Both the position numbers and the translations under genes were made by a program. Source: Candidatus Peregrinibacteria bacterium CG10_big_fil_rev_8_21_14_0_10_42_8 (GTDB taxonomy: Bacteria; Patescibacteriota; Gracilibacteria; Peribacterales; Peribacteraceae). Taken from it: a stretch of 50,016 bases of DNA. Location: positions 15,955 to 65,970 of the forward strand of contig PFDQ01000043.1 of assembly GCA_002772815.1 (NCBI GenBank), written 5' to 3'. Each line of letters starts with the position of its first letter. Positions within the stretch are counted from its first letter, which is position 1. The notes beneath the pieces were generated by a model. The model worked only from the letters and a program-made list of their open reading frames with translations, was not told the DNA's origin and ran no database searches. Shown one piece after another: positions 484 to 38,869 of this stretch.

Positions 484-1266
484 GTGAAATACACACAAAA
501 CCTTATGAAGCTTAAAAGAAATATAATCACTACAGTAACACTCGGACTTCTTATTGTTGTCGGTGCAGTCGGTGCATTCTTCGATGAGATTGTTGCTCTT
601 CAAGAAGAGCTACAGGTATGGGAAGAATCAAATGCTGCAGACTTTTCGGATGTTATCGAACAACTTGAAGATATTACAGGCCCAGTGTTTAGGGATGTTG
701 CAGATGCAGATTGGTTTAATCCATACGTTGCGTCACTCGCTGAGTGGGGCATTGTTTCTGGTTTTAAAGATGAGCATGGTCGACCAACAGGTGAGTACCG
801 CCCAGGGAATGAGGTGACAATTGCGGAAGTCTTAAAGATGGCTATGGAGGCTGCCCTTGTAGATGAGGCACAGTGTCTAAACACACCACTTCATCCACAA
901 GCTCTCAACCATTGGTCTGTACATTATGTAGCGTGTGCAGAAGATATGGGATTGCGAATGCTTGACCCTCGTCTACCTGCTGATCTTAATCGTCCTGCAA
1001 AAAGAGCAGAAGTACTTACCATTATTCATGACACATTTGCCGACAATGTACTTCCTCTTTATAGCAGCTTTAGCGATACACAAGGACACAGATTTGAGGC
1101 AGACATCGCGTATGCAAACTTGTACGGAATAGTGAGTGGAGACACAAATTCTGATGGAACAGAGAAAGGAACATTCCGTCCTGATGATGCTATCAACCGA
1201 GCTGAAACTGCCAAAATTATCTACGAGCGTCTAAAGCTCGAGGTTGTTGATACTCGTGAGCTGTAA
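484..1266 (+). CDS. Secreted/membrane-anchored SLH-domain protein
   Basis: N-terminal TM/signal segment IITTVTLGLLIVVGAVGAF. Two S-layer-homology-like modules: FRDVADADWFNPYVASLAEWGIVSG and FSDTQGHRFEADIAYANLYGIVSGD...FRPDDAINRAETAKIIY. The start could instead be ATG 505. Confidence 0.75.
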   Translation: MKYTQNLMKLKRNIITTVTLGLLIVVGAVGAFFDEIVALQEELQVWEESNAADFSDVIEQLEDITGPVFRDVADADWFNPYVASLAEWGIVSGFKDEHGRPTGEYRPGNEVTIAEVLKMAMEAALVDEAQCLNTPLHPQALNHWSVHYVACAEDMGLRMLDPRLPADLNRPAKRAEVLTIIHDTFADNVLPLYSSFSDTQGHRFEADIAYANLYGIVSGDTNSDGTEKGTFRPDDAINRAETAKIIYERLKLEVVDTREL

Positions 1267-1475: not shown

Positions 1476-2198
1476 ATGCAAGAACGACTCCAGAAAATCC
1501 TCTCGGCACAAGGAATCTGCTCTAGACGGAAAGCAGAAGAGTACATCGAGGCAGGCCTCGTCACAGTAAACGGAGAAGTGGCGGCACTTGGACAAAAAGC
1601 AGATGAGGCAGTCGACACAATAGAAGTGGATGGCAAAGTTCTCGCAGATCGCAAAGAGATGCTCTACTACCTCATGAACAAGCCAGTTGGCTATATTACG
1701 AGTAATGTTGATAACGATGAGCATCCAGATAGAACTGTTCGCGATTTACTCCCAAAGGAGTTACAGGGGAAGATCTACCCCATTGGTCGCCTCGACAAAG
1801 AAACATCTGGACTCCTTCTTTTTACGAATGATGGCGTGCTTGCATACCGACTGACACATCCGTCGTTTGATCATGAAAAAGAATATGAAGTGGAATCAAA
1901 CGAAGAGGTAAAAGAAGGTCAGCTCGAAAAAATGCGCACAGGAATGATGATAAAAGATGAGAAGACAAAGCCAGCAACTGTGGAAAAAATCAGTAACACA
2001 AAATTTACTATAGCCCTAACAGAAGGGAAAAACAGACAGATCCGTCGCATGTGTAAGAAGGTAGGAATTCCACTTATTGCACTGAAGCGCACACGCATTA
2101 TGACACTAAAACCTCAGCTCGAAAAAAATGGTTTCAGAGCACTCTCTGAAAAAGAGAGAACAGCACTGTTAGAGTCAGTGCATATTGAAATTGCTTGA
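1476..2198 (+). CDS. Pseudouridine synthase, RsuA/RluB family with N-terminal S4 domain
   Basis: An internal ATG was chosen. MQERLQKILSAQGICSRRKAEEYI matches an S4 RNA-binding N-terminus. The catalytic motif is GRLDKETSGLLLFTNDG. Confidence 0.85.
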   Translation: MQERLQKILSAQGICSRRKAEEYIEAGLVTVNGEVAALGQKADEAVDTIEVDGKVLADRKEMLYYLMNKPVGYITSNVDNDEHPDRTVRDLLPKELQGKIYPIGRLDKETSGLLLFTNDGVLAYRLTHPSFDHEKEYEVESNEEVKEGQLEKMRTGMMIKDEKTKPATVEKISNTKFTIALTEGKNRQIRRMCKKVGIPLIALKRTRIMTLKPQLEKNGFRALSEKERTALLESVHIEIA

Positions 2199-2226
2199 GG
2201 TTAGTATAATTGGTATTATTCGTTTA

Positions 2227-5200
2227 ATGAAAAAAAAGTTTGTTGTAATTGGTATGGCGTTTAGCGCCCTTTTGCTAATTATTTTTACATTGCAGTCACA
2301 ATGGGGAAACTTGAAGGGGCAATCGGGATGGACTGAGTCATGTAGTATAGCGGCTAACCCTGATGGATCATGCCCCTATGGATATGGTGACCAAGGGGGA
2401 GTGTGTTATTCCTCTGATGGGACATTATGTACATGTACTAACGGAGCTAGTGGTTTTTGCGGAGCGGGGAGTTGTAGTTGTTCAGAGGTTGAGCCAGCAA
2501 GAGGAACGTGTTGTGACACAGCAACATCACCAGGTTCACCAAGTTATTTAACAGAACAAGGCTGTACAGATATGCAAGGAATATGGCATCAAGGGCCGTA
2601 TAATATGGCACTTTGCTTTTCTATCACATCGTCATCAGCATCCTCAGTAGTGTTAAGCTCGTCTGTCCAAAGCTCTTCCGTTGCGCCACGATGTGGCGAT
2701 GGAACAGTAGACCAAGGAGAACAGTGTGATGATAGTAATACTACAGATAATGATGGATGTTCTCGTTCGTGTAAAAACGAGAGGTGTGGGGATGGTATTA
2801 AACAATTAAATGAAGAATGTGATGATGAAAACACAGTGACTGCAGATGCGTGTACGAATGCTTGCACGGTAGCAAAGTGTGGAGATGGTGTTCTCCGTTC
2901 AGGGTTCGACCCCCAAACGAACGTGATCTATGAGCAGTGTGATGATGGTAATACAAACAATGATGATGGATGTGATAGTAGCTGTAAGATAGAACGATGT
3001 GGAAATTACGTTATTGAATCAAACGAAATGTGTGAACAGATCAATAATGGGTGGGTGCAAGATACGACATGTGGAAATGGTCAGTTTTGCTGTGCAGAAT
3101 GTACTACTTGTCGGATAGCGTGCCCCTTTCTTGATTCAAATGGCAGCGGTGAGATTCCTGATGGATATGGTATTCGCGGAAGGGGTGGGGAATGTGGTTC
3201 GCCGTTGTGTTATACAAGTTGTAGTTCTGCAGTATTCGAACGATGTGCAGAATGCAGTGGTTGTGGCGAGTCAGACTCTGTAGAAAGCTGCGAAGAAATG
3301 TGTGGAGATAAACCTGCGTCAGACCCATGTTGGGACGATTGTCATGAGAATAAGATATGTAATGCAGCCTGTGAAGACCCAGATGGTGATGGTATAGGGT
3401 ATTACATGGAAAACTTGTCATGCGTGAGTGGTGTTGGCGATTCCCCTGCAACGTGTCAGTTTATTACGAGTAGTAACACAGGAGGAGGTTCAGGAGGCCA
3501 AAATGGAGGGGGAAACGGAGGGCAGAATGGTGGAAATAATGGCGGAGCAAGTGGCGGAGGTGAGGGTGGTGACACCGGTGGAACGGATACAGGCGGAACA
3601 GACGGCGGTGCGTCCGGCGGTGATACGGGTGGAGCATCTTCTGCATCGGCATCTTCGATAAGTTCAACTCCACACTGCTACGAAACAGGCGAGTGTTCTA
3701 CTTGTCCCAGTTGTTTCAGTTCGTGTTTCTGCACTATGCATATCAATGCGCAAAACCAAGGGTTACCCCCGCCAAGTACCAGCCGGATTGAAAGCACTTG
3801 TACGGCTCAATGTGTCGATAGCCCACCACCTAATTCTTCCTCAAATGGAAATACATCAAGCGCTTCTAGTAGGTCTAATACCTCTAGCACTTCACGGTCA
3901 AATGGATCGGTGCCTTCTAATGGAAATAGCAGTTCTGTTATTGTTGCTTTCGATTATCATTATGAATGTATGCAGCAAAGCTGTGTACTTGTTCTGACTG
4001 CGGGGCAAGATACATGTGCTACTGACAAAGATTGTTTGGGAGCTAAGTCGTCAACGTCTGCAAATCAGTCATCGTTAAGCTCAGGGTCGTCAGGTTCAGA
4101 TCAATCTTCATCATTCTCTGATAGCTCGAATAATTCATTTAACTTCTCTTCATCATTCTCTGATGGCTCGAATAATTCATCTAACTTCTCTTCATCGCTA
4201 TCTTATAGTTCAGATACTTCTAATTTCTCTTCATCATTCTTAAGCAGTTCTATTAATTCTTCAGATATATCGAATGTTTCATCATCATCAGAATTCTCAG
4301 ATTCTTCCGCTTCCTCAGGTGTATCTACTTCTTATACCTTTAGTCAGCCTTCTTTTGCATCGTATTCTTCTGAGAATTCACAGAATTCAAATTCTAGTAT
4401 TGTGCAAGAATCATCTACATCTAACGTATCAAGCACGTCGTTTAGCATTCGCTTCTCTTCTGATTCTGAATCAAGCACATCATCACGAGGTAGTGCAAGA
4501 AGTTCGTTTGCAAACAGTACAATCATCGTCATTGCAGAAGATGATGATGGAGACGGAGACGGCGATGATGGCTTCCGAGATAATAACAATCAGTGGGTTT
4601 TGAGGCCATCTAGCTTCATTGCACAAAACGTAAACGGTACATTAGTAGCTGCAGCATCTATGTGTGGTAATGGTATTCTTGATGTTGGCGAAGAGTGTGA
4701 CGACAGCAATAGACGTGACAACGATGGTTGTTCGATATCGTGCCTTCTTGAGATTGGTATTTGTGGGGATGGAAAAGTACAAAGCCTTCTAGGAGAGCAA
4801 TGTGAGGGTGGTATTGATTGTCAGAAGTGTCGATTTGTGAGTCAGACATGTGGAGATGGCATAGTAGACCCAAGAGAAGAATGTGATAGTGGCGCGTTAA
4901 ACTCTTTGTCACCAAATGCTGACTGTCGCCCAGACTGTAGTTTATCTCGATGTGGTGATTCAGTGCTCGATACAACGGAGCTCTGTGATGATGGAAATCG
5001 ACTCAATAGTGATGGGTGTGACAGGTATTGCAGACTAGAAACAACAGTTCTTGCACAGCAAAATAGCAATAATTATGAGCAATTACAGGCTCAGATGTTA
5101 GCGAATCAACAGTTTGGCTTCCCTCAATACGCAAACTATCAACAGTTGCCCTATCAGTTGCCACTTGCACAGCTTCAACCACTTATACAGAACCAAGGTC

Positions 5201-5295
5201 CAATAGGTGATACAGGTCCTGCTGCAGTAGCAGTAGCAGCATCAGGAATGGCTGCAGGAGTCGGCTGGATACGAAGGAAGAAGCGAAAATCGTAG
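2227..5295 (+). CDS. Large cysteine-rich repeat surface protein with signal peptide, Gly-rich and Ser-rich low-complexity regions and a C-terminal sorting-signal-like tail
   Basis: Signal/TM segment MKKKFVVIGMAFSALLLIIF. About 8 copies of CGDGxxxxxEqCDDgNxxxxDGCxxxC (Myxococcus-type cysteine-rich repeat pattern), in two blocks at roughly nt 2690-3010 and 4660-5040. The tail is IGDTGPAAVAVAASGMAAGVGWIRRKKRKS. Confidence 0.85.
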   Translation: MKKKFVVIGMAFSALLLIIFTLQSQWGNLKGQSGWTESCSIAANPDGSCPYGYGDQGGVCYSSDGTLCTCTNGASGFCGAGSCSCSEVEPARGTCCDTATSPGSPSYLTEQGCTDMQGIWHQGPYNMALCFSITSSSASSVVLSSSVQSSSVAPRCGDGTVDQGEQCDDSNTTDNDGCSRSCKNERCGDGIKQLNEECDDENTVTADACTNACTVAKCGDGVLRSGFDPQTNVIYEQCDDGNTNNDDGCDSSCKIERCGNYVIESNEMCEQINNGWVQDTTCGNGQFCCAECTTCRIACPFLDSNGSGEIPDGYGIRGRGGECGSPLCYTSCSSAVFERCAECSGCGESDSVESCEEMCGDKPASDPCWDDCHENKICNAACEDPDGDGIGYYMENLSCVSGVGDSPATCQFITSSNTGGGSGGQNGGGNGGQNGGNNGGASGGGEGGDTGGTDTGGTDGGASGGDTGGASSASASSISSTPHCYETGECSTCPSCFSSCFCTMHINAQNQGLPPPSTSRIESTCTAQCVDSPPPNSSSNGNTSSASSRSNTSSTSRSNGSVPSNGNSSSVIVAFDYHYECMQQSCVLVLTAGQDTCATDKDCLGAKSSTSANQSSLSSGSSGSDQSSSFSDSSNNSFNFSSSFSDGSNNSSNFSSSLSYSSDTSNFSSSFLSSSINSSDISNVSSSSEFSDSSASSGVSTSYTFSQPSFASYSSENSQNSNSSIVQESSTSNVSSTSFSIRFSSDSESSTSSRGSARSSFANSTIIVIAEDDDGDGDGDDGFRDNNNQWVLRPSSFIAQNVNGTLVAAASMCGNGILDVGEECDDSNRRDNDGCSISCLLEIGICGDGKVQSLLGEQCEGGIDCQKCRFVSQTCGDGIVDPREECDSGALNSLSPNADCRPDCSLSRCGDSVLDTTELCDDGNRLNSDGCDRYCRLETTVLAQQNSNNYEQLQAQMLANQQFGFPQYANYQQLPYQLPLAQLQPLIQNQGPIGDTGPAAVAVAASGMAAGVGWIRRKKRKS
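4105..4270 (+). repeat. Tandem ~42-nt repeats inside the Ser-rich region
   Basis: Two near-identical units (tcttcatcattctctgatRgctcgaataattcatYtaactt) encode SSSFSD(S/G)SNNS(F/S)NF. Two degenerate units follow. Confidence 0.7.
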
Positions 5296-25879: not shown

Positions 25880-25972
25880 GAGCACCTCCTTTTTTTCATA
25901 AAGCTGTAGATGGGGGGGGAAAGATCTACGTGTATATTCTACTGTACACTATACGAGGTCAAGAACACTTCC

Positions 25973-25981
25973 TGCTATACT
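25973..25981 (+). promoter_or_regulatory. Extended -10 box TGcTATACT
   Basis: Lies 7 nt upstream of ATG 25989. Confidence 0.45.
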
Positions 25982-25988
25982 TTGTAGT

Positions 25989-27931: not shown

Positions 27932-28023
27932 CCCTTTTATGGCTGCAAGTAGTATAAAAACCCGAAGAAGTATATCAGCATATTTTTTTATGCACGGGAC
28001 TATACAGGACGGGTGTCTCTCTA

Positions 28024-28032
28024 TGCTATACT
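28024..28032 (+). promoter_or_regulatory. Extended -10 box TGcTATACT
   Basis: Lies 6 nt upstream of ATG 28039. Confidence 0.45.
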
Positions 28033-28038
28033 CTGTTT

Positions 28039-28404
28039 ATGAAACTCAAAGAAATCGCAAAACTTACGTGGCTACCAGTTGTCGGCGCATCACTTTGCTG
28101 CCTTAGTCCAGTGATCATCGTCCTGTTTGGTCTTGGAACAGCAGCATTTGCCAGTTCTCTTGCAGATACACTCTACGGAGACTACAAGTGGTTCTTTAGA
28201 ATAGGTGGGCTCTTCCTTTTGTTGCTGTCAGTCTTTTATCACTATCGAAAGAAGGGTGTCTGTTCGCTCGACCAAGCGAAGCGTCATAAGAACGAAATCC
28301 TCAACACAATTCTTATTACCGTCTTTGCAGGAGCAATAGGATACGTCTTCTTCTTGTATGTTGTCGTGCACTACGCTGGTGTGTGGTTGAATTTGTGGGT
28401 TTGA
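28039..28404 (+). CDS. MerT-like three-TM membrane protein with a CC motif in TM1
   Basis: VVGASLCCLSPVIIVLFGLG resembles the MerT TM1 vicinal-Cys motif. A loop Cys (KKGVCSLD) lies between TM2 and TM3. Confidence 0.5.
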   Translation: MKLKEIAKLTWLPVVGASLCCLSPVIIVLFGLGTAAFASSLADTLYGDYKWFFRIGGLFLLLLSVFYHYRKKGVCSLDQAKRHKNEILNTILITVFAGAIGYVFFLYVVVHYAGVWLNLWV

Positions 28405-28413
28405 TCTATCAGC

Positions 28414-28592
28414 TTGTAACTTTTGGGATCAAAAGTTACCAAAAATCTTAACCACTGATATGAACGAAGAAATACAGGAAGAACGTACTGTGCGCTCCTC
28501 GACTAAGCTTGCTGCGGCAACTTAGCTCTTCGTCACTAAGAAGAAGTGCAGCGGTGTGATCTTCGTCCATACTACAGTGGCTAGAAGATGGA
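28414..28592 (+). repeat. Structured repeat, copy A (5' hairpin module + core + 3' module)
   Basis: Hairpin GTAACTTTTG-ggat-CAAAAGTTAC (28416-28439). The core CAAAAATCTTAACCACTGATATGAACGAAGAAATA...GTGCGCTCCTC is shared with copies B and C. The 3' module GCGGTGTGATCTTCGTCCATAC is identical to copy B. Confidence 0.8.
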
Positions 28593-28913
28593 TCACCCCC
28601 ACTTCTTCCCCCACTTACAAAAACCTCCAAAGACAGTCTGTAGGTCTGCTCCTTTTTCAGTAATGCTGTATTCAATGCAGATAGGCTTACCATCGGTTAC
28701 TGTTCGTTCGATGAGGCCTTCTTCTTCCAGTTCTGTCAGCCGCTCGGAAAGAATACGAGAGTTGATCTCTGGTAGCGCATCTTTAATTTCGCAAAACCGC
28801 ATTTTCTTTGTATCTGCGATACATCGTAAAATATGCATTGCCCACTTTTTTGAGCAAAAATCAATGATTCCGTAGATCGGACAATCGCACGATGATGGTT
28901 GTTTTTTAGGCAT
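28593..28913 (-). CDS. HxlR-family (MarR-like winged helix) transcriptional regulator
   Basis: CPIYGIIDFCSKKWAMHILRCI...RFCEIKDALPEINSRILSERLTELEEEGLIERT is a typical HxlR signature. Confidence 0.85.
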   Translation of the reverse strand: MPKKQPSSCDCPIYGIIDFCSKKWAMHILRCIADTKKMRFCEIKDALPEINSRILSERLTELEEEGLIERTVTDGKPICIEYSITEKGADLQTVFGGFCKWGKKWG

Positions 28914-28921
28914 GTACGGTT

Positions 28922-28927
28922 AGTATA
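28922..28927 (-). promoter_or_regulatory. -10 box TATACT
   Basis: Lies 8 nt upstream of the HxlR ATG (28913). Confidence 0.4.
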
Positions 28928-28977
28928 CATAGATATACCTCCAAAAACTACTTAATTACTATTAAATACATGTTTTA

Positions 28978-28997
28978 CAAAAGTAACCGACTAAGCT
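28978..28997 (+). repeat. Deleted fragment (D) of the structured repeat
   Basis: CAAAAGTAACC is joined directly to GACTAAGCT. In copy A these two strings are separated by 61 nt. Confidence 0.5.
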
Positions 28998-29031
28998 AGA
29001 CTACGTCTGTTATTTCCTACCCCTAATACTT

Positions 29032-29187
29032 ATGGGATGTTGTTCAAAGGACAATCATTGCTCTGATGAGAGCAAGAAATGTTCAGAAGGTTGTACTTGC
29101 GATACATGCAAGGAATGCGCTGAAAAGTGCAAAGAGAAGTGTGATGAAAAGTCTTCAGAGCACAAAGGTGATAGTTGTTGCGGTTAA
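29032..29187 (+). CDS. Metallothionein-like cysteine-rich small protein (51 aa, 12 Cys), absent from the ORF track
   Basis: My own translation is MGCCSKDNHCSDESKKCSEGCTCDTCKECAEKCKEKCDEKSSEHKGDSCCG*. It has CC, CxC and CxxC motifs. It is divergent from the HxlR gene and next to the MerT-like gene. Confidence 0.65.
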   Translation: MGCCSKDNHCSDESKKCSEGCTCDTCKECAEKCKEKCDEKSSEHKGDSCCG

Positions 29188-29284
29188 GCAGACTCTTCAT
29201 CGTCAAACAGGGCATCCTGGGTGGGGTGTTCTGTTTTTATGTAGCTTCGCTATCTTCATTTGTGCCTTTTTTGATAAATGATTT

Positions 29285-29600
29285 GTAACTTTTCAGATGA
29301 AAAGTAACCAAAAATCTTCGCCACTGATATGGACGAAGAAATAAAGAGAGAACGAAGCGTGCGCTCCTCAGTAAACTTCGTCGCTAAGTACGCGTGAAGC
29401 GGTGTGATCTTCGTCCATACGACAGTGGCTGGACGAGCGAGAAGTTAAGGGTGGGTTGGCAGACTGCATGTTTGAGGGCGAAGAATAAGATATGAGTAAA
29501 AGGAATACAGCGACGAGAGCCAGTCGCTGTAAGCGAACGCAGTGACCTGGGCGAGGAGCGCAAAGGAAAAAGGGGCAAAGGAATAGCGGAGTTAATATAT
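29285..29600 (+). repeat. Structured repeat, copy B (longest copy: hairpin + core + 3' module + about 170-nt extension)
   Basis: Hairpin GTAACTTTTC-agat-GAAAAGTAAC (29285-29308). About 85% identical to copy A over the first ~85 nt, judged by eye. The extension contains GAGGAGCGCA, complementary to the core GTGCGCTCCTC, plus a tail shared with copy C. Confidence 0.8.
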
Positions 29601-29622: not shown

Positions 29623-29651
29623 TTGACCCCCCTTGCTCTTCTCTTTATATT
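29623..29651 (+). promoter_or_regulatory. Sigma-70-like promoter TTGACC-N17-TATATT for the ribosomal protein cluster
   Basis: Both hexamers are near consensus with exact 17-nt spacing. It lies about 100 nt upstream of the rplC ATG. Confidence 0.55.
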
Positions 29652-29751: not shown

Positions 29752-30357
29752 ATGTGTAACGGACGTATTTGTACAAAAATCGGCATGTCACGAGTCTTCA
29801 CTGAGAACGGTGATGCAGTCCCTGTTACCTACTTGAAGGTAGAACCAAACCACGTTATCCGTACAAAGACAAAGGAGAAGGACGGGTACAATGCGGTTGT
29901 TCTTGGTATCAATCCAAAGAAATGGAGAACACGCAAAGGAAACGAGCACACAAAGTATTCTACTATAAAGGAGTGGGAAGTAGAGAGCCTTGATGGCCTT
30001 GAAGCAGGGAAGGAGCTTACATCAGAAGAATTCACAACAGATGCAAAGGTGCAGATCACAGGTGTCTCTAAAGGAAAGGGATTCCAAGGTGTTATTAGGC
30101 GTCACAACTTCTCTCGTGGTCCAGAAACACACGGTTCACACCACCACAGGAAGCCAGGTTCTATTGGAATGTGTGAATTCCCTGGACGTGTTATGAAAGG
30201 TAAGAAAATGCCAGGACGAATGGGTAACGATCAGATAACCTTGAAAAAGCGTGAAATCTTGAATTGCGACGTTGAAAAAGGTGTCATTGCGGTAAAAGGT
30301 CCAGTTCCTGGACCAAATGGCTCTCGTCTCTACGTCACACTTACTCCAGCCTCATAA
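29752..30357 (+). CDS. rplC: 50S ribosomal protein L3
   Basis: An internal ATG was chosen. ..RICTKIGMSRVFTENGDAVPVT matches the L3 N-terminus. FQGVIRRHNF is also present. Confidence 0.9.
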   Translation: MCNGRICTKIGMSRVFTENGDAVPVTYLKVEPNHVIRTKTKEKDGYNAVVLGINPKKWRTRKGNEHTKYSTIKEWEVESLDGLEAGKELTSEEFTTDAKVQITGVSKGKGFQGVIRRHNFSRGPETHGSHHHRKPGSIGMCEFPGRVMKGKKMPGRMGNDQITLKKREILNCDVEKGVIAVKGPVPGPNGSRLYVTLTPAS

Positions 30358-33078: not shown

Positions 33079-33108
33079 TTCTAACCAACTCTTACCACCC
33101 CCTAATAC

Positions 33109-38692: not shown

Positions 38693-38855
38693 GTGACTTT
38701 TGAAAGATCAAAAGCAACTTCGTTAATTCCTTTTGTCCCTTTTTCCTTGCTTAGCGACGCAGGTTTACCGAGGAGCGCACAACTCTGTTCTTTTATTATT
38801 TCTTCGTTCATATCAGTGGCTAAGATTTTTGGTTACTTTTCATCGGAAAAGTGAC
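38693..38855 (-). repeat. Structured repeat, copy C (inverted relative to A/B; hairpins at both ends; internal deletion variant)
   Basis: The reverse complement reads GTCACTTTTC-cgat-GAAAAGTAAC CAAAAATCTTAGCCACTGATATGAACGAAGAAATA...GTGCGCTCCTCGGTAAAC..CGTCGCTAAGCAAGGAAAAAGGGACAAAAGG. A second hairpin, GTGACTTTTG-aaagat-CAAAAGCAAC, lies at 38693-38718. Confidence 0.75.
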
Positions 38856-38863
38856 AAAAGAGT

Positions 38864-38869
38864 TATAAT
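38864..38869 (+). promoter_or_regulatory. -10 box TATAAT
   Basis: Consensus hexamer 6 nt upstream of ATG 38876. Confidence 0.45.

What the first reader, a model, noticed from the sequence alone, without database searches (positions are those of the whole stretch)
29032..29187. Unannotated 51-aa metallothionein-like protein (24% Cys)
This ORF falls below the track cutoff and encodes MGCCSKDNHCSDESKKCSEGCTCDTCKECAEKCKEKCDEKSSEHKGDSCCG. It has 12 Cys in CC, CxC and CxxC arrangements, no aromatic or hydrophobic core, and one or two His. This composition resembles eukaryote-style metallothioneins rather than the SmtA/BmtA bacterial type. It is divergently paired with an HxlR regulator and sits next to a MerT-like CC-motif membrane protein, which suggests a compact thiophilic-metal (Hg/Cd/Cu/Zn) handling module.
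Basis: partly seen in the sequence, partly recalled or inferred. Interest (0 to 1): 0.68.

Follow-up and report, generated by a model that had tools for sequence, protein, structure and literature searches.

The report
Hidden HxlR-controlled cysteine-rich peptide gene
A real but routinely mis-annotated 51-residue gene in a marine Peregrinibacteria (CPR) genome encodes a metallothionein-like peptide that is one-quarter cysteine, always paired with a thiol-sensing HxlR repressor, and probably serves as a stress-induced sink for soft metals and/or thiol-reactive toxins.

Summary
The ORF at 29032-29187(+) is exactly as described: 51 aa, 12 Cys, 2 His, no aromatic or aliphatic residues. It is a genuine gene. 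It is the only frame open in six diverged Peregrinibacteria lineages. dN/dS is 0.1-0.3, indels come in multiples of three, and Cys is kept far better than other residues. It has its own promoter and a conserved terminator with compensatory changes. Public gene calls miss it and call an overlapping 71-aa frame instead.

It matches no metallothionein family, no other Pfam or NCBIfam model, and no PDB sequence. "Metallothionein-like" therefore rests on composition only.

The conserved core is a two-gene module: the peptide plus a divergent HxlR/DUF24 regulator. The regulator has a YodB/HypR/QsrR-like fold and an invariant sensing Cys. A conserved palindrome, GTTACTTT-N3-AAAGTAAC, overlaps the peptide promoter's -35 in 13 lineages. 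In one of these the target is an NfsB-like nitroreductase instead of a peptide.

The MerT-like neighbour scores below the Pfam threshold and is present only in the closest relatives, so it is not core.

Best reading: a thiol-stress-inducible, metallothionein-like thiolate sink. Metal binding is untested. I rate it a new variant of a known kind, of moderate interest.

The parts
29032..29187 (+). Gene for the 51-aa Cys-rich (metallothionein-like) peptide
   Evidence: Searches give the ORF. It is the only frame open in six lineages. dN/dS is 0.09-0.30. Indels against L004 are 6 and 12 nt. Cys is kept at 10-12 of 12 positions, against 23-35 of 39 for other residues, in the three closest lineages.
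28970..28987 (.). Putative HxlR operator. It is a palindrome with consensus GTTACTTT-N3-AAAGTAAC; the left arm is degenerate in the window (ATGTTTT). It overlaps the -35 of the peptide promoter.
   Evidence: It is conserved at a fixed distance of about 45-50 nt upstream of the ATG in 13 lineages whose HxlR proteins are 55-100% identical. Binding is inferred, not shown.
28974..29002 (+). Sigma-70-like promoter of the peptide gene (TTTACA-17 nt-TAGACT)
   Evidence: Found by the consensus scan. The -35 is invariant and the -10 is TAnAnT-like in all six Peribacter-type lineages.
29009..29031 (+). Conserved short 5' UTR (GTTATTTCCTACCCCTAATACTT) with an invariant CCCC and no Shine-Dalgarno sequence
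   Evidence: The same ACCCC(C)TAATAC-ATG context precedes rpsC in this genome, which lacks SD motifs in general.
29205..29238 (+). Intrinsic terminator of the peptide mRNA (hairpin followed by a U-run)
   Evidence: RNAalifold on six lineages predicts 14 pairs, 4 of them with compensatory double changes, followed by a T-run.
28593..28913 (-). HxlR/DUF24-family winged-helix regulator (106 aa) with the sensing Cys11 in a C-x-C-P motif
   Evidence: PF01638 at E=6e-24. PDB sequence hits to YdzF, YodB, HypR/YybR and HxlR. The AF2 model has pLDDT 86.6 and TM 0.83-0.90 to YodB and QsrR. Cys11 is invariant in 34 homologues.
28922..28929 (-). Extended -10 (TG-TATACT) of the HxlR promoter, 8 nt before its ATG, implying a leaderless or near-leaderless mRNA
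   Evidence: Read directly from the sequence. The TATTATACA block is conserved in six lineages.
28947..28962 (.). Second conserved intergenic block (ACTACTTAATTACTAT), possibly additional HxlR half-sites
   Evidence: Near-invariant in six lineages. Its function is inferred.
28039..28404 (+). MerT-like three-TM membrane protein with a CC pair in TM1. It is a lineage-specific neighbour, not part of the core module.
   Evidence: PF02411 at 23.8 bits, below the 32.9 cut-off. NCBIfam MerT models match at E of 6e-5 to 4e-4, far below their cut-offs. It is present in the window, L012 and L009/L013 only.
28414..28588 (+). Copy A of a ~170-nt structured multi-copy repeat, filling the gap between the MerT-like gene and HxlR
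   Evidence: It is absent at this position in L012 and L009.
29283..29436 (+). Copy B of the same repeat, between the peptide's terminator and rplC

Best explanation
The ORF is a genuine monocistronic gene. It encodes a cytosolic, intrinsically unstructured, metallothionein-like peptide: about 24% Cys, acidic, Lys/Ser-rich, with no hydrophobic core.

Together with the divergent HxlR/DUF24 regulator it forms a conserved two-gene stress module.

Proposed mechanism:
- The HxlR dimer sits on the palindrome GTTACTTT-N3-AAAGTAAC, which overlaps the -35 of the peptide promoter, and represses it. This is inferred from the position and conservation of the palindrome.
- A thiol-reactive agent then modifies the regulator's invariant N-terminal Cys (C-x-C-P). 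The agent could be an oxidant, an electrophile, or possibly a soft metal such as Cu(I), Cd or Hg. This step is inferred by analogy with YodB, HypR and QsrR.
- The repressor releases the DNA. A roughly 230-nt mRNA is made, translated through the genome's normal non-SD initiation context, and ended by a conserved hairpin terminator.
- The peptide then acts as a high-capacity thiolate sink. It binds soft metal ions in metal-thiolate clusters and/or sacrificially captures oxidants and electrophiles. This is inferred from composition only.

Shown here: the gene is real, it is under purifying selection, its synteny with HxlR is conserved, and the promoter, operator and terminator are conserved. Inferred: repression, the nature of the inducer, and the chemistry of the peptide.
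For: Coding evidence:
- Only the +1 frame is open in all six lineages.
- dN/dS is 0.09-0.30, and indels are multiples of three.
- Cys is retained at 10-12 of 12 positions, against 59-90% identity for other residues, in the closer lineages.
- A 49-aa homologue, P0001, is the only hit in 1.84e9 representative proteins.

Module evidence:
- Every HxlR relative of 73-92% identity carries a divergent Cys-rich ORF. These come from three GTDB Peregrinibacteria MAGs, four JGI contigs and five ENA contigs.
- More distant relatives (55-64% identity) carry Cys-rich ORFs of 38-117 aa with the same N-terminal C[ST]-x(2-4)-C[ST] motif.

Regulatory architecture:
- The palindrome, -35, -10 and CCCC 5' UTR are conserved in 13 lineages.
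- The terminator shows 4 compensatory pairs.

Regulator class:
- PF01638 match, fold match to YodB, QsrR, HypR and HxlR, and an invariant CP Cys.
- HypR's equivalent Cys14 is the redox sensor, and it is conserved across DUF24 regulators (PMC3351151).

Related contexts:
- The same operator precedes an NfsB-like nitroreductase in L025.
- Other relatives sit beside a nitroreductase, an AhpC-type peroxiredoxin, a GST, or a Cu-type P1B ATPase with HMA and cupredoxin genes.

Peptide properties:
- No fold is predicted. The AF2 model has pLDDT 61 with one helix at residues 23-40, and residues 1-20 and 41-51 at mean pLDDT 52-56 with no secondary structure assigned. This fits metal-dependent or no folding.
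Against: - No experimental data exist, and no transcript or proteomic evidence could be accessed.
- No homology to any metallothionein family was found. The functional assignment therefore rests on composition.
- Cys spacing is not conserved between the MGCC-type and MKDC-type lineages; only 6 of 12 Cys align. This is typical of metallothioneins, but it also fits any selection for thiol number alone.
- No HxlR-family member is known to sense metals (own knowledge). No paper pairing HxlR with a metallothionein was found.
- The left arm of the operator is degenerate in the window itself.
- Some HxlR-family members, such as HypR and HxlR, are activators rather than repressors. The sign of regulation is therefore uncertain.
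Confidence: 0.6

Rival explanations
1. Dedicated thiophilic-metal module. The MerT-like protein imports a soft metal (Hg, Cd, Cu or Zn), the peptide sequesters it as a true metallothionein, and HxlR acts as the metal sensor.
For: A MerT-like protein with a CC pair in TM1 lies beside the module in the window, L012 and L009/L013. One HxlR relative (L018) follows a P1B ATPase with an HMA domain, an HMA-DsbD_2 protein and a cupredoxin. The regulators paired with Cys-rich ORFs mostly carry two or three N-terminal Cys (CxCP, CCP or CCCP), which could form a metal site. The peptide's composition resembles Cu(I)-type metallothioneins.
Against: The MerT match is below threshold, and the protein has a single loop Cys. 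It has its own promoter and converges on HxlR. In the window a repeat insertion separates the two genes. It is absent from L010, L011, L004 and all distant loci that still keep the HxlR-peptide pair. None of the genes scanned between about 24.4 and 29.2 kb is merA, merP or merR, and the genes downstream are ribosomal-protein genes. All characterised members of this regulator class sense oxidants or electrophiles.
Confidence: 0.2
2. Purely redox or electrophile buffer. The peptide is a gene-encoded sacrificial polythiol that does not function through metal binding. It would be induced by disulfide, quinone or hypochlorite stress, like the nitroreductase targets of YodB and HypR.
For: The regulator's fold and sensing Cys match YodB, HypR and QsrR. 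The same operator precedes an NfsB-like nitroreductase in L025. Neighbours in other loci include a nitroreductase, AhpC/Redoxin, a GST and an SDR. Cys number is conserved but Cys spacing is not.
Against: Any peptide with 12 free thiols, including CxC, CC and CxxC groups, will bind Zn, Cu or Cd avidly in vivo (established metallothionein chemistry, own knowledge). Excluding metal binding is therefore hard. The metal-transport neighbours in two independent contexts would be left unexplained.
Confidence: 0.15
3. Mini iron-sulfur or ferredoxin-like protein. In the window peptide, C23-x2-C26-x2-C29-x3-C33 matches the classical CxxCxxCxxxC [4Fe-4S] motif.
For: The motif is present in the window, L012, L009 and L004 peptides.
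Against: The motif is absent in L010, L011, L022 and the long forms. There is no ferredoxin Pfam hit at E<=10. No Pro follows the motif, and there is no hydrophobic core to shield a cluster.
Confidence: 0.03
4. RiPP precursor, for example a thiazole/oxazole, lanthipeptide or SCIFF-type peptide, matured by enzymes encoded elsewhere.
For: The sequences are rich in Cys, Ser, Thr and Gly. The L022 peptide (CGSGGCSGSCSSC...) superficially resembles TOMM cores. Nitroreductase-fold genes occur near two relatives.
Against: No YcaO, radical-SAM, LanB/C/M or transporter gene lies within about 5 kb in the window or in any related locus. The nitroreductases are NfsB-like, not SagB-type. There is no SCIFF or other NCBIfam precursor hit. 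There is no leader/core division, and the strongly acidic, Lys-rich composition is atypical.
Confidence: 0.02
5. The annotated overlapping 71-aa ORF (29066-29281, +2 frame) is the real gene, or nothing here is coding. A further variant is that the ORF is merely a Cys-rich leader peptide attenuating the downstream rplC operon.
For: Public gene calls (NCBI, IMG, ENA) list the 71-aa product. The peptide gene is co-directional with rplC in the window.
Against: The +2 frame has stops in L010 and L011, is only 32 aa in L004, and is a 143-aa chimera in L009. The Cys frame is under purifying selection. In L010 an opposite-strand gene lies between the peptide gene and rplC, and in L011 two other genes do. 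A conserved terminator follows the ORF directly, with no alternative anti-terminator evident.
Confidence: 0.02

Closest known systems
Metallothioneins in the operational sense, especially small fungal Cu(I)-MTs (Neurospora/Agaricus type) and mycobacterial MymT
   Same: They share small size (42-56 aa), 19-25% Cys arranged as CC/CxC/CxxC, no aromatic residues, a cytosolic location with no signal peptide, no predicted fold without metal, and rapid sequence turnover with retention of Cys number. MymT and SmtA are the only bacterial metallothioneins whose function had been studied as of 2020 (PMC7387436).
   Different: No sequence relationship to any metallothionein Pfam family was detected, and the search of 1.84e9 representative proteins hit nothing except P0001. 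The family is strongly Lys/Glu/Asp/Ser-rich. Its regulator is HxlR/DUF24, not SmtB/ArsR (SmtA) or CsoR/RicR (MymT; own knowledge). Metal binding is untested.
SmtA/BmtA bacterial metallothioneins (Pfam PF02069, MT family 14)
   Same: Both are bacterial, small, Cys-rich, and transcribed divergently from their own repressor, as with smtA-smtB (own knowledge).
   Different: There is no HMM match. The family lacks the zinc-finger-like fold elements, aromatic residues and conserved His ligands of SmtA. His is absent in four of six lineages.
YodB / HypR / QsrR / CatR regulons (MarR/DUF24 = HxlR-family thiol-based sensors of Firmicutes)
   Same: The regulator's fold and the conserved N-terminal sensing Cys at the start of helix alpha-1 are the same. 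Both have palindromic operators at the promoter of a divergent or adjacent target. In one relative the target is a nitroreductase, as for HypR-HypO and YodB-YodC.
   Different: Here the regulated product is a Cys-rich peptide rather than a reductase or dioxygenase. The regulators carry extra N-terminal Cys (CxCP or CCCP). The lineage is CPR (Peregrinibacteria). The inducer is unknown.
MerT mercuric ion transporter
   Same: The neighbour has three predicted TM segments, a CC pair in TM1, and weak HMM similarity.
   Different: It scores below all curated thresholds. It has one loop Cys rather than a cytoplasmic pair. Among the genes scanned at about 24.4-29.2 kb none is merA, merP or merR. It is not conserved with the module.

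Membership tests
Metallothionein (operational definition: Kagi/Binz criteria) | Low molecular mass (under about 10 kDa) | tested here: met
   51 aa in the window; 42-56 aa in five other lineages.
Metallothionein (operational definition: Kagi/Binz criteria) | High Cys content (roughly 15-30%) in CC, CxC and CxxC motifs | tested here: met
   19-25% Cys across six lineages, with CC, CxC and CxxC motifs present.
Metallothionein (operational definition: Kagi/Binz criteria) | Absence or scarcity of aromatic residues | tested here: met
   No F, W or Y in any of the six lineages, and essentially no aliphatic residues.
Metallothionein (operational definition: Kagi/Binz criteria) | High metal content bound in metal-thiolate clusters | not testable with these tools
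   This needs ICP-MS, ESI-MS or spectroscopy on the purified peptide.
Any sequence-defined MT family in Pfam (PF00131, PF01439, PF02069, PF11403, PF12749 etc.) | Significant match to the family HMM | tested here: not met
   No Pfam family matched at E<=10 for the six short peptides or for four long and one short distant member. NCBIfam and PDB sequence searches gave nothing relevant.
SmtA/BmtA | Conserved His ligands and aromatic residues of the zinc-finger-like fold | tested here: not met
   His is absent in four of six lineages and there are no aromatic residues.
MymT | Detectable sequence similarity | tested here: not met
   phmmer against 1.84e9 representative proteins returned only P0001. 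I assume, but did not verify, that a MymT representative is in that library.
HxlR/DUF24 (MarR-type) thiol-based regulators (for the partner gene) | PF01638 domain above the gathering score | tested here: met
   84.1 bits against a cut-off of 20.8.
HxlR/DUF24 (MarR-type) thiol-based regulators (for the partner gene) | Conserved N-terminal Cys at the start of helix alpha-1 (the Cys-Pro motif; HypR Cys14, YodB Cys6) | tested here: met
   Cys11-Pro12 sits immediately before predicted helix 12-20 and is invariant in 34 homologues. It aligns with the CP of 7kd3. Its role in HypR is described in PMC3351151.
HxlR/DUF24 (MarR-type) thiol-based regulators (for the partner gene) | Winged-helix fold like YodB, QsrR and HypR | tested here: met
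   Foldseek TM 0.80-0.90, E of 1e-8 to 1e-6.
HxlR/DUF24 (MarR-type) thiol-based regulators (for the partner gene) | Oxidant- or electrophile-dependent change in DNA binding | not testable with these tools
   This needs EMSA or footprinting with and without diamide, NaOCl, quinones and metals.
MerT (for the neighbour at 28039-28404) | Match to PF02411 or NCBIfam MerT models above the curated cut-off | tested here: not met
   PF02411 scores 23.8 against 32.9. NCBIfam scores are 20-23 bits against cut-offs of 130-180.
MerT (for the neighbour at 28039-28404) | Cys pair in TM1 | tested here: met
   SLCCLSP at residues 18-24.
MerT (for the neighbour at 28039-28404) | Second, cytoplasmic-loop Cys pair and a mer operon context (merR, merP, merA) | tested here: not met
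   There is a single loop Cys (C75). The genes scanned upstream, from about 24.4 to 28.4 kb, are a cytidylyltransferase-like protein, an APS-kinase-like protein, DUF3307, SNase and a 485-aa membrane protein without a Pfam hit. The genes downstream of the module, from about 29.7 kb, are ribosomal-protein genes by their translations.
RiPP precursor (TOMM, lanthipeptide, SCIFF) | Adjacent maturase (YcaO, LanB/C/M or radical SAM) and/or a precursor-family HMM hit | tested here: not met
   None in the window or in the related loci inspected. There is no NCBIfam precursor hit. The nearby nitroreductases are NfsB-like.

The most novel reading that the evidence does not exclude
These HxlR-controlled Cys-rich peptides form a widespread family that is invisible to gene callers. 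Forms seen here include the short Peribacter type, forms with an added C-terminal helical domain, and mini-ORFs with E(G/S)CGC repeats. The novel reading is that they are the principal gene-encoded thiol and metal buffer of Peregrinibacteria and related CPR bacteria. In that reading they stand in for small-molecule thiols such as glutathione, and the HxlR-type regulator senses soft metals through its CxCP/CCCP motif. That would be a new inducer class for this regulator family. I did not test whether these genomes lack low-molecular-weight thiol synthesis.
Probability: 0.15. Interest if true: 0.8.

Novelty: new variant of a known kind. Interest (0 to 1): 0.55.

Why it matters
Functionally studied bacterial metallothioneins are very few: as of 2020, essentially SmtA/BmtA and MymT (PMC7387436). 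None has been reported from the Candidate Phyla Radiation. Full-text searches for metallothionein with HxlR or with 'Candidate Phyla Radiation' found no paper, and the two papers that mention metallothionein and Peregrinibacteria do so once each in unrelated studies.

This locus defines a new sequence family of metallothionein-like peptides. It has a clear and experimentally tractable regulatory design: one repressor, one palindrome, one tiny target gene. It sits in organisms with minimal genomes, where every retained gene is informative.

It is also a concrete example of a conserved small gene hidden by mis-called overlapping ORFs. The deposited protein is a spurious 71-aa product from another frame. 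In 1.84 billion representative proteins only one true family member has been called.

If metal binding or thiol-stress protection is confirmed, the regulon repertoire of HxlR/DUF24 sensors would extend from detoxifying enzymes to a sacrificial or sequestering peptide. The peptide would also be a compact part for metal capture.

Tried and rejected
- Word-indexed protein search with the peptide alone found nothing. With a six-sequence profile it found only P0001, because the family is almost never gene-called.
- Exact look-up of the peptide in the gene-position index found no record. The source contig carries the +2-frame 71-aa call instead.
- Pfam, NCBIfam and PDB sequence searches of the short and long family members gave no meaningful hits.
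- Rfam searches, at gathering thresholds over the whole window and at E<=10 over 27.9-29.9 kb, gave only chance snoRNA-like matches. No tRNAs were found.
A two-sequence alignment gave a low-confidence model, so I ran no fold search on it.
- I considered pairing between the 5'-UTR CCCC tract and the G-rich terminator loop. I dropped the idea as only 5 bp and unconvincing.
- I considered that the flanking ~170-nt direct repeats mark a mobile HxlR-peptide cassette. I rejected this because the module sits at the same chromosomal position (between the SNase/DUF3307 block and rplC) in all Peribacter-type lineages. The repeats are absent at these positions in L012 and L009, and one copy is in the opposite orientation in L011.
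- The search for the operator pattern elsewhere in the window, allowing 3 mismatches, was no better than chance.
- One HxlR relative (P0037) could not be inspected because no DNA was available.
Full report
**1. The observation**

The ORF at 29032-29187 (+) exists exactly as quoted: ATG to TAA, 51 codons.
- It has 12 Cys (23.5%) and 2 His.
- It has no Phe, Trp or Tyr, and no Leu, Ile, Val or Met after Met1.
- Lys, Glu, Asp and Ser make up more than half of the peptide.

It is the most Cys-rich of the 372 ORFs of at least 40 aa in all six frames of the window, where the mean Cys content is 3.2%. A binomial estimate for 12 or more Cys in 51 residues is about 6e-8 per ORF.

Three independently assembled contigs from other samples carry a 100% identical locus (L001-L003).

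**2. Is it a gene?**

Public gene calling did not call it. On those contigs the called gene is the overlapping +2-frame ORF of 71 aa (29066-29281), and that product is what NCBI, IMG and ENA hold. Comparative evidence shows that the Cys frame is the real one.

HMMER against 1.84 billion representative proteins found a single relative, P0001 (49 aa, 74% identical). It is encoded on five contigs, each with a divergent HxlR gene.

I then used the HxlR protein as an anchor. This yielded three GTDB MAGs, all Candidatus Peregrinibacteria or Peribacter, and four JGI metagenome contigs. Every one has an uncalled Cys-rich ORF of 42-56 aa divergent from HxlR. That gives six distinct sequences.

The evidence for coding in this frame is:
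- Only the +1 (Cys) frame is free of stops in all six. The +2 frame has stops in L010 and L011, and the antisense frames have stops in several lineages.
- The +2 ORF is only 32 aa in L004. In L009 it is a 143-aa chimera running into a remnant gene.
- Against L004 the indels are 6 and 12 nt.
- Pairwise dN/dS, where dS is not saturated, is 0.09-0.30.
- In the three closer lineages 10-12 of 12 Cys are kept, against 23-35 of 39 other residues.

**3. The transcription unit**

The 118-nt spacer between the HxlR ATG (28913, minus strand) and the peptide ATG contains a sigma-70-like promoter, TTTACA-17 nt-TAGACT, at 28974-29002. Its -35 is invariant, and its -10 is TAnAnT-like in all six lineages.

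A short 5' UTR (29009-29031) has an invariant CCCC and no Shine-Dalgarno sequence. This genome lacks SD motifs in general. The peptide's initiation context, ACCCCTAATACTT-ATG, is nearly the same as that of rpsC, ACCCCCTAATAC-ATG. The missing SD is therefore not evidence against translation.

Downstream, 29205-29238 folds into a hairpin followed by a U-run. In the six-lineage alignment 4 of its 14 pairs show compensatory double changes.

The gene is thus a monocistronic unit, insulated from the rplC operon that follows in the window. In L010 an opposite-strand gene lies between the peptide gene and rplC, and in L011 two other genes do. This argues against a leader-peptide role.

**4. The partner regulator**

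The partner gene, 28593-28913 (-), matches PF01638 (HxlR) at E=6e-24. By sequence it hits the solved structures of YdzF, YodB, HypR/YybR and HxlR.

An AF2 model (pLDDT 86.6) superposes on reduced YodB, QsrR, HxlR and HypR with TM 0.80-0.90.

Cys11, in the motif C-D-C-P at the start of helix alpha-1, is invariant in 34 homologues. [quoted passage not shown]

The HxlR promoter has an extended -10 (TG-TATACT) only 8 nt before its ATG. That implies a leaderless mRNA, a pattern shared by the SNase and MerT-like genes.

**5. A conserved operator and a wider family**

A palindrome with consensus GTTACTTT-N3-AAAGTAAC overlaps the -35 of the peptide promoter. It sits at a fixed 45-50 nt before the ATG in 13 lineages whose HxlR proteins are 55-100% identical and whose GC content ranges from 35% to 59%. 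In the window its left arm is degenerate (28970-28987).

The more distant lineages carry different targets behind this operator:
- L022: a 38-aa peptide with 9 Cys.
- L016, L020, L024 and L026: proteins of about 100-117 aa with a Cys-rich N-terminal half and a helical C-terminal half.
- L024 and L027: mini-ORFs with repeated E(G/S)CGC motifs.
- L025: an NfsB-like nitroreductase.

The peptides share an N-terminal C[ST]-x(2-4)-C[ST] motif. The Peribacter forms also share the C-terminal (E/D)KG-x-CGC motif.

None of these proteins matches Pfam, NCBIfam or PDB sequences.

**6. The MerT-like neighbour**

The gene at 28039-28404 (+) has a CC pair in its first TM segment. It scores below every curated MerT threshold and has only one loop Cys. 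It has its own leaderless-type promoter and converges on HxlR.

It is present only in the window, L012 and L009/L013. L010, L011, L004 and the distant loci lack it. It is a lineage-specific neighbour, not part of the conserved module.

One other metal-related context exists. The HxlR relative in L018 follows a P1B ATPase with an HMA domain, an HMA-DsbD_2 protein and a cupredoxin. Other relatives sit beside a nitroreductase, AhpC/Redoxin, a GST or an SDR.

**7. Mechanism**

The best-supported model is a stress-inducible thiolate sink.
- HxlR occupies the palindrome and, because the palindrome overlaps the -35, most likely represses the promoter.
- Modification of its sensing Cys relieves repression.
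- The peptide is then made.

The peptide has no predicted fold. Its AF2 model has pLDDT 61 and a single helix at residues 23-40, which places C23, C26, C29, C33 and C37 on one face (my calculation from helix periodicity). It offers 12 thiolates for soft metals and/or for oxidants and electrophiles.

Shown here: the gene is real, it is under selection, and its synteny and cis-elements are conserved. Inferred: the sign of regulation, the inducer, and the chemistry of the peptide.

The regulator class and the nitroreductase paralogous target favour thiol-reactive stress as the signal. The peptide's composition and the two metal-transport contexts favour metal binding as at least part of its function. 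These two readings are not exclusive. Eukaryotic metallothioneins do both (own knowledge).

**8. Rivals**

- **Dedicated MerT-peptide-HxlR metal module (0.2).** It fits the closest lineages, but the wider family does not support it.
- **Pure redox buffer (0.15).** It cannot be separated from the main model without experiments.
- **Mini-ferredoxin (0.03).** The CxxCxxCxxxC motif is not conserved.
- **RiPP precursor (0.02).** No maturase lies nearby in the window or in any related locus inspected.
- **The annotated 71-aa frame, no gene, or a leader peptide (0.02).** The frame and selection tests contradict this.

**9. Comparison with known systems and novelty**

In operational terms the peptide meets every sequence-level metallothionein criterion. 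It belongs to no described metallothionein sequence family. It also lacks the His and aromatic features of SmtA/BmtA.

Its regulator type differs from those of the studied bacterial metallothioneins, which are SmtB/ArsR for SmtA and CsoR/RicR for MymT (own knowledge).

Full-text searches found no paper linking metallothionein with HxlR or with the Candidate Phyla Radiation. The two papers that contain both 'metallothionein' and 'Peregrinibacteria' mention each term once, in unrelated studies. The Peribacteria genome paper discusses only large extracellular Cys-rich proteins (PMC4736985).

I rate it a new variant of a known kind: a new metallothionein-like family with a new regulatory pairing, in CPR bacteria, hidden by mis-annotation. 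Interest is 0.55. It is solidly real, tractable and unreported, but its function is inferred from composition and context only.

Noticed in passing
window 28414-28588 (+), 29283-29436 (+), 38750-38866 (-); also L009 1780-1955, L011 1175-1345 and 3339-3507: A multi-copy element of about 170 nt. It starts with a hairpin (TTGTAACTTTTc.gATGAAAAGTAACC), followed by a long stem (CCACTGATATGgACGAAGA...TCTTCGTCCATAC.ACAGTGG). The RNA fold z-scores are -3.7 and -4.2, and there is no Rfam match. Two copies bracket the HxlR-peptide pair in the window, but they are absent at those positions in L012 and L009, and one copy is in the opposite orientation in L011. It therefore looks like a MITE/REP-like intergenic repeat or an undescribed ncRNA family of Peribacteria. 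Its hairpin shares the 10-mer AAAAGTAACC with the putative HxlR operator (3 hits in the window against 0.12 expected).
   Followed up: partly
window-wide; examples at 33079-33108 (rpsC), 25959-25988 (SNase), 28009-28038 (MerT-like), 28914-28943 (HxlR): Start codons are not preceded by Shine-Dalgarno motifs; the upstream regions are pyrimidine-rich. Several genes have a TATACT or TATAAT box only 7-10 nt before the ATG, which suggests widespread leaderless mRNAs in this Peregrinibacteria genome.
   Followed up: partly
window 29066-29281 (+); L009 2287-2718 (-): Public annotations hold a spurious +2-frame product in place of the Cys-rich peptide: 71 aa here, and a 143-aa chimera with a remnant RibD_C-like gene in L009. 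Only one true family member is called among 1.84e9 representative proteins.
   Followed up: yes
L016 2044-2382 (-), L020 about 2079-2384 (-), L024 about 1950-2300 (-), L026 about 725-1036 (-): More distant HxlR relatives are paired with proteins of about 100-117 aa. These join the Cys-rich N-terminal region to a conserved helical C-terminal domain (..KIKxRLEAKxGKKMDEAADLAVE..) that has no Pfam, NCBIfam or PDB match. In some contigs the gene callers truncated them to the helical part alone.
   Followed up: partly
L027 about 2290-2370 (-); L024 about 2290-2368 (-): Tiny ORFs of 26-27 aa with repeated E(G/S)CGC motifs (MSYFKNTLGGESCGCGYNTGGEGSCGC; MTHTFTGREGCGCQKNLGGDEGCGCC) lie directly behind the same operator and promoter. 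I did not establish whether they are translated.
   Followed up: no
L018 1-2264: An HxlR relative (60% identity) lies immediately downstream of a P1B-type ATPase with an HMA domain, an HMA-DsbD_2 membrane protein and a cupredoxin-like protein, and upstream of a GST. This is the only clear copper or heavy-metal context found for this HxlR clade, and the locus has no Cys-rich ORF.
   Followed up: partly
window 29755-30357 and upstream: The ribosomal-protein operon starts with rplC. No rpsJ (S10) gene precedes it. Instead there is about 570 nt of non-coding sequence, including repeat copy B. The listed TTG-start ORF at 29623 probably overextends rplC, whose likely start is MCNGRICTKIGMSRVF.
   Followed up: no
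window 2185-5295 (+): This ORF encodes a 1036-aa protein with many Cys-rich CGDG..DDxNxxxxDGC repeats and long Ser-rich tracts. It resembles the large extracellular Cys-rich proteins described for Peribacteria (PMC4736985).
   Followed up: no
L009 1927-2187 (+) and L010 1688-2044 (+): In some relatives a small ORF with a ribbon-helix-helix-like C-terminus (…RISPRIK.AAERQSKRDELSLSDVTRMLLKAYAKGDI…) sits between the peptide gene and rplC. It is absent in the window.
   Followed up: no
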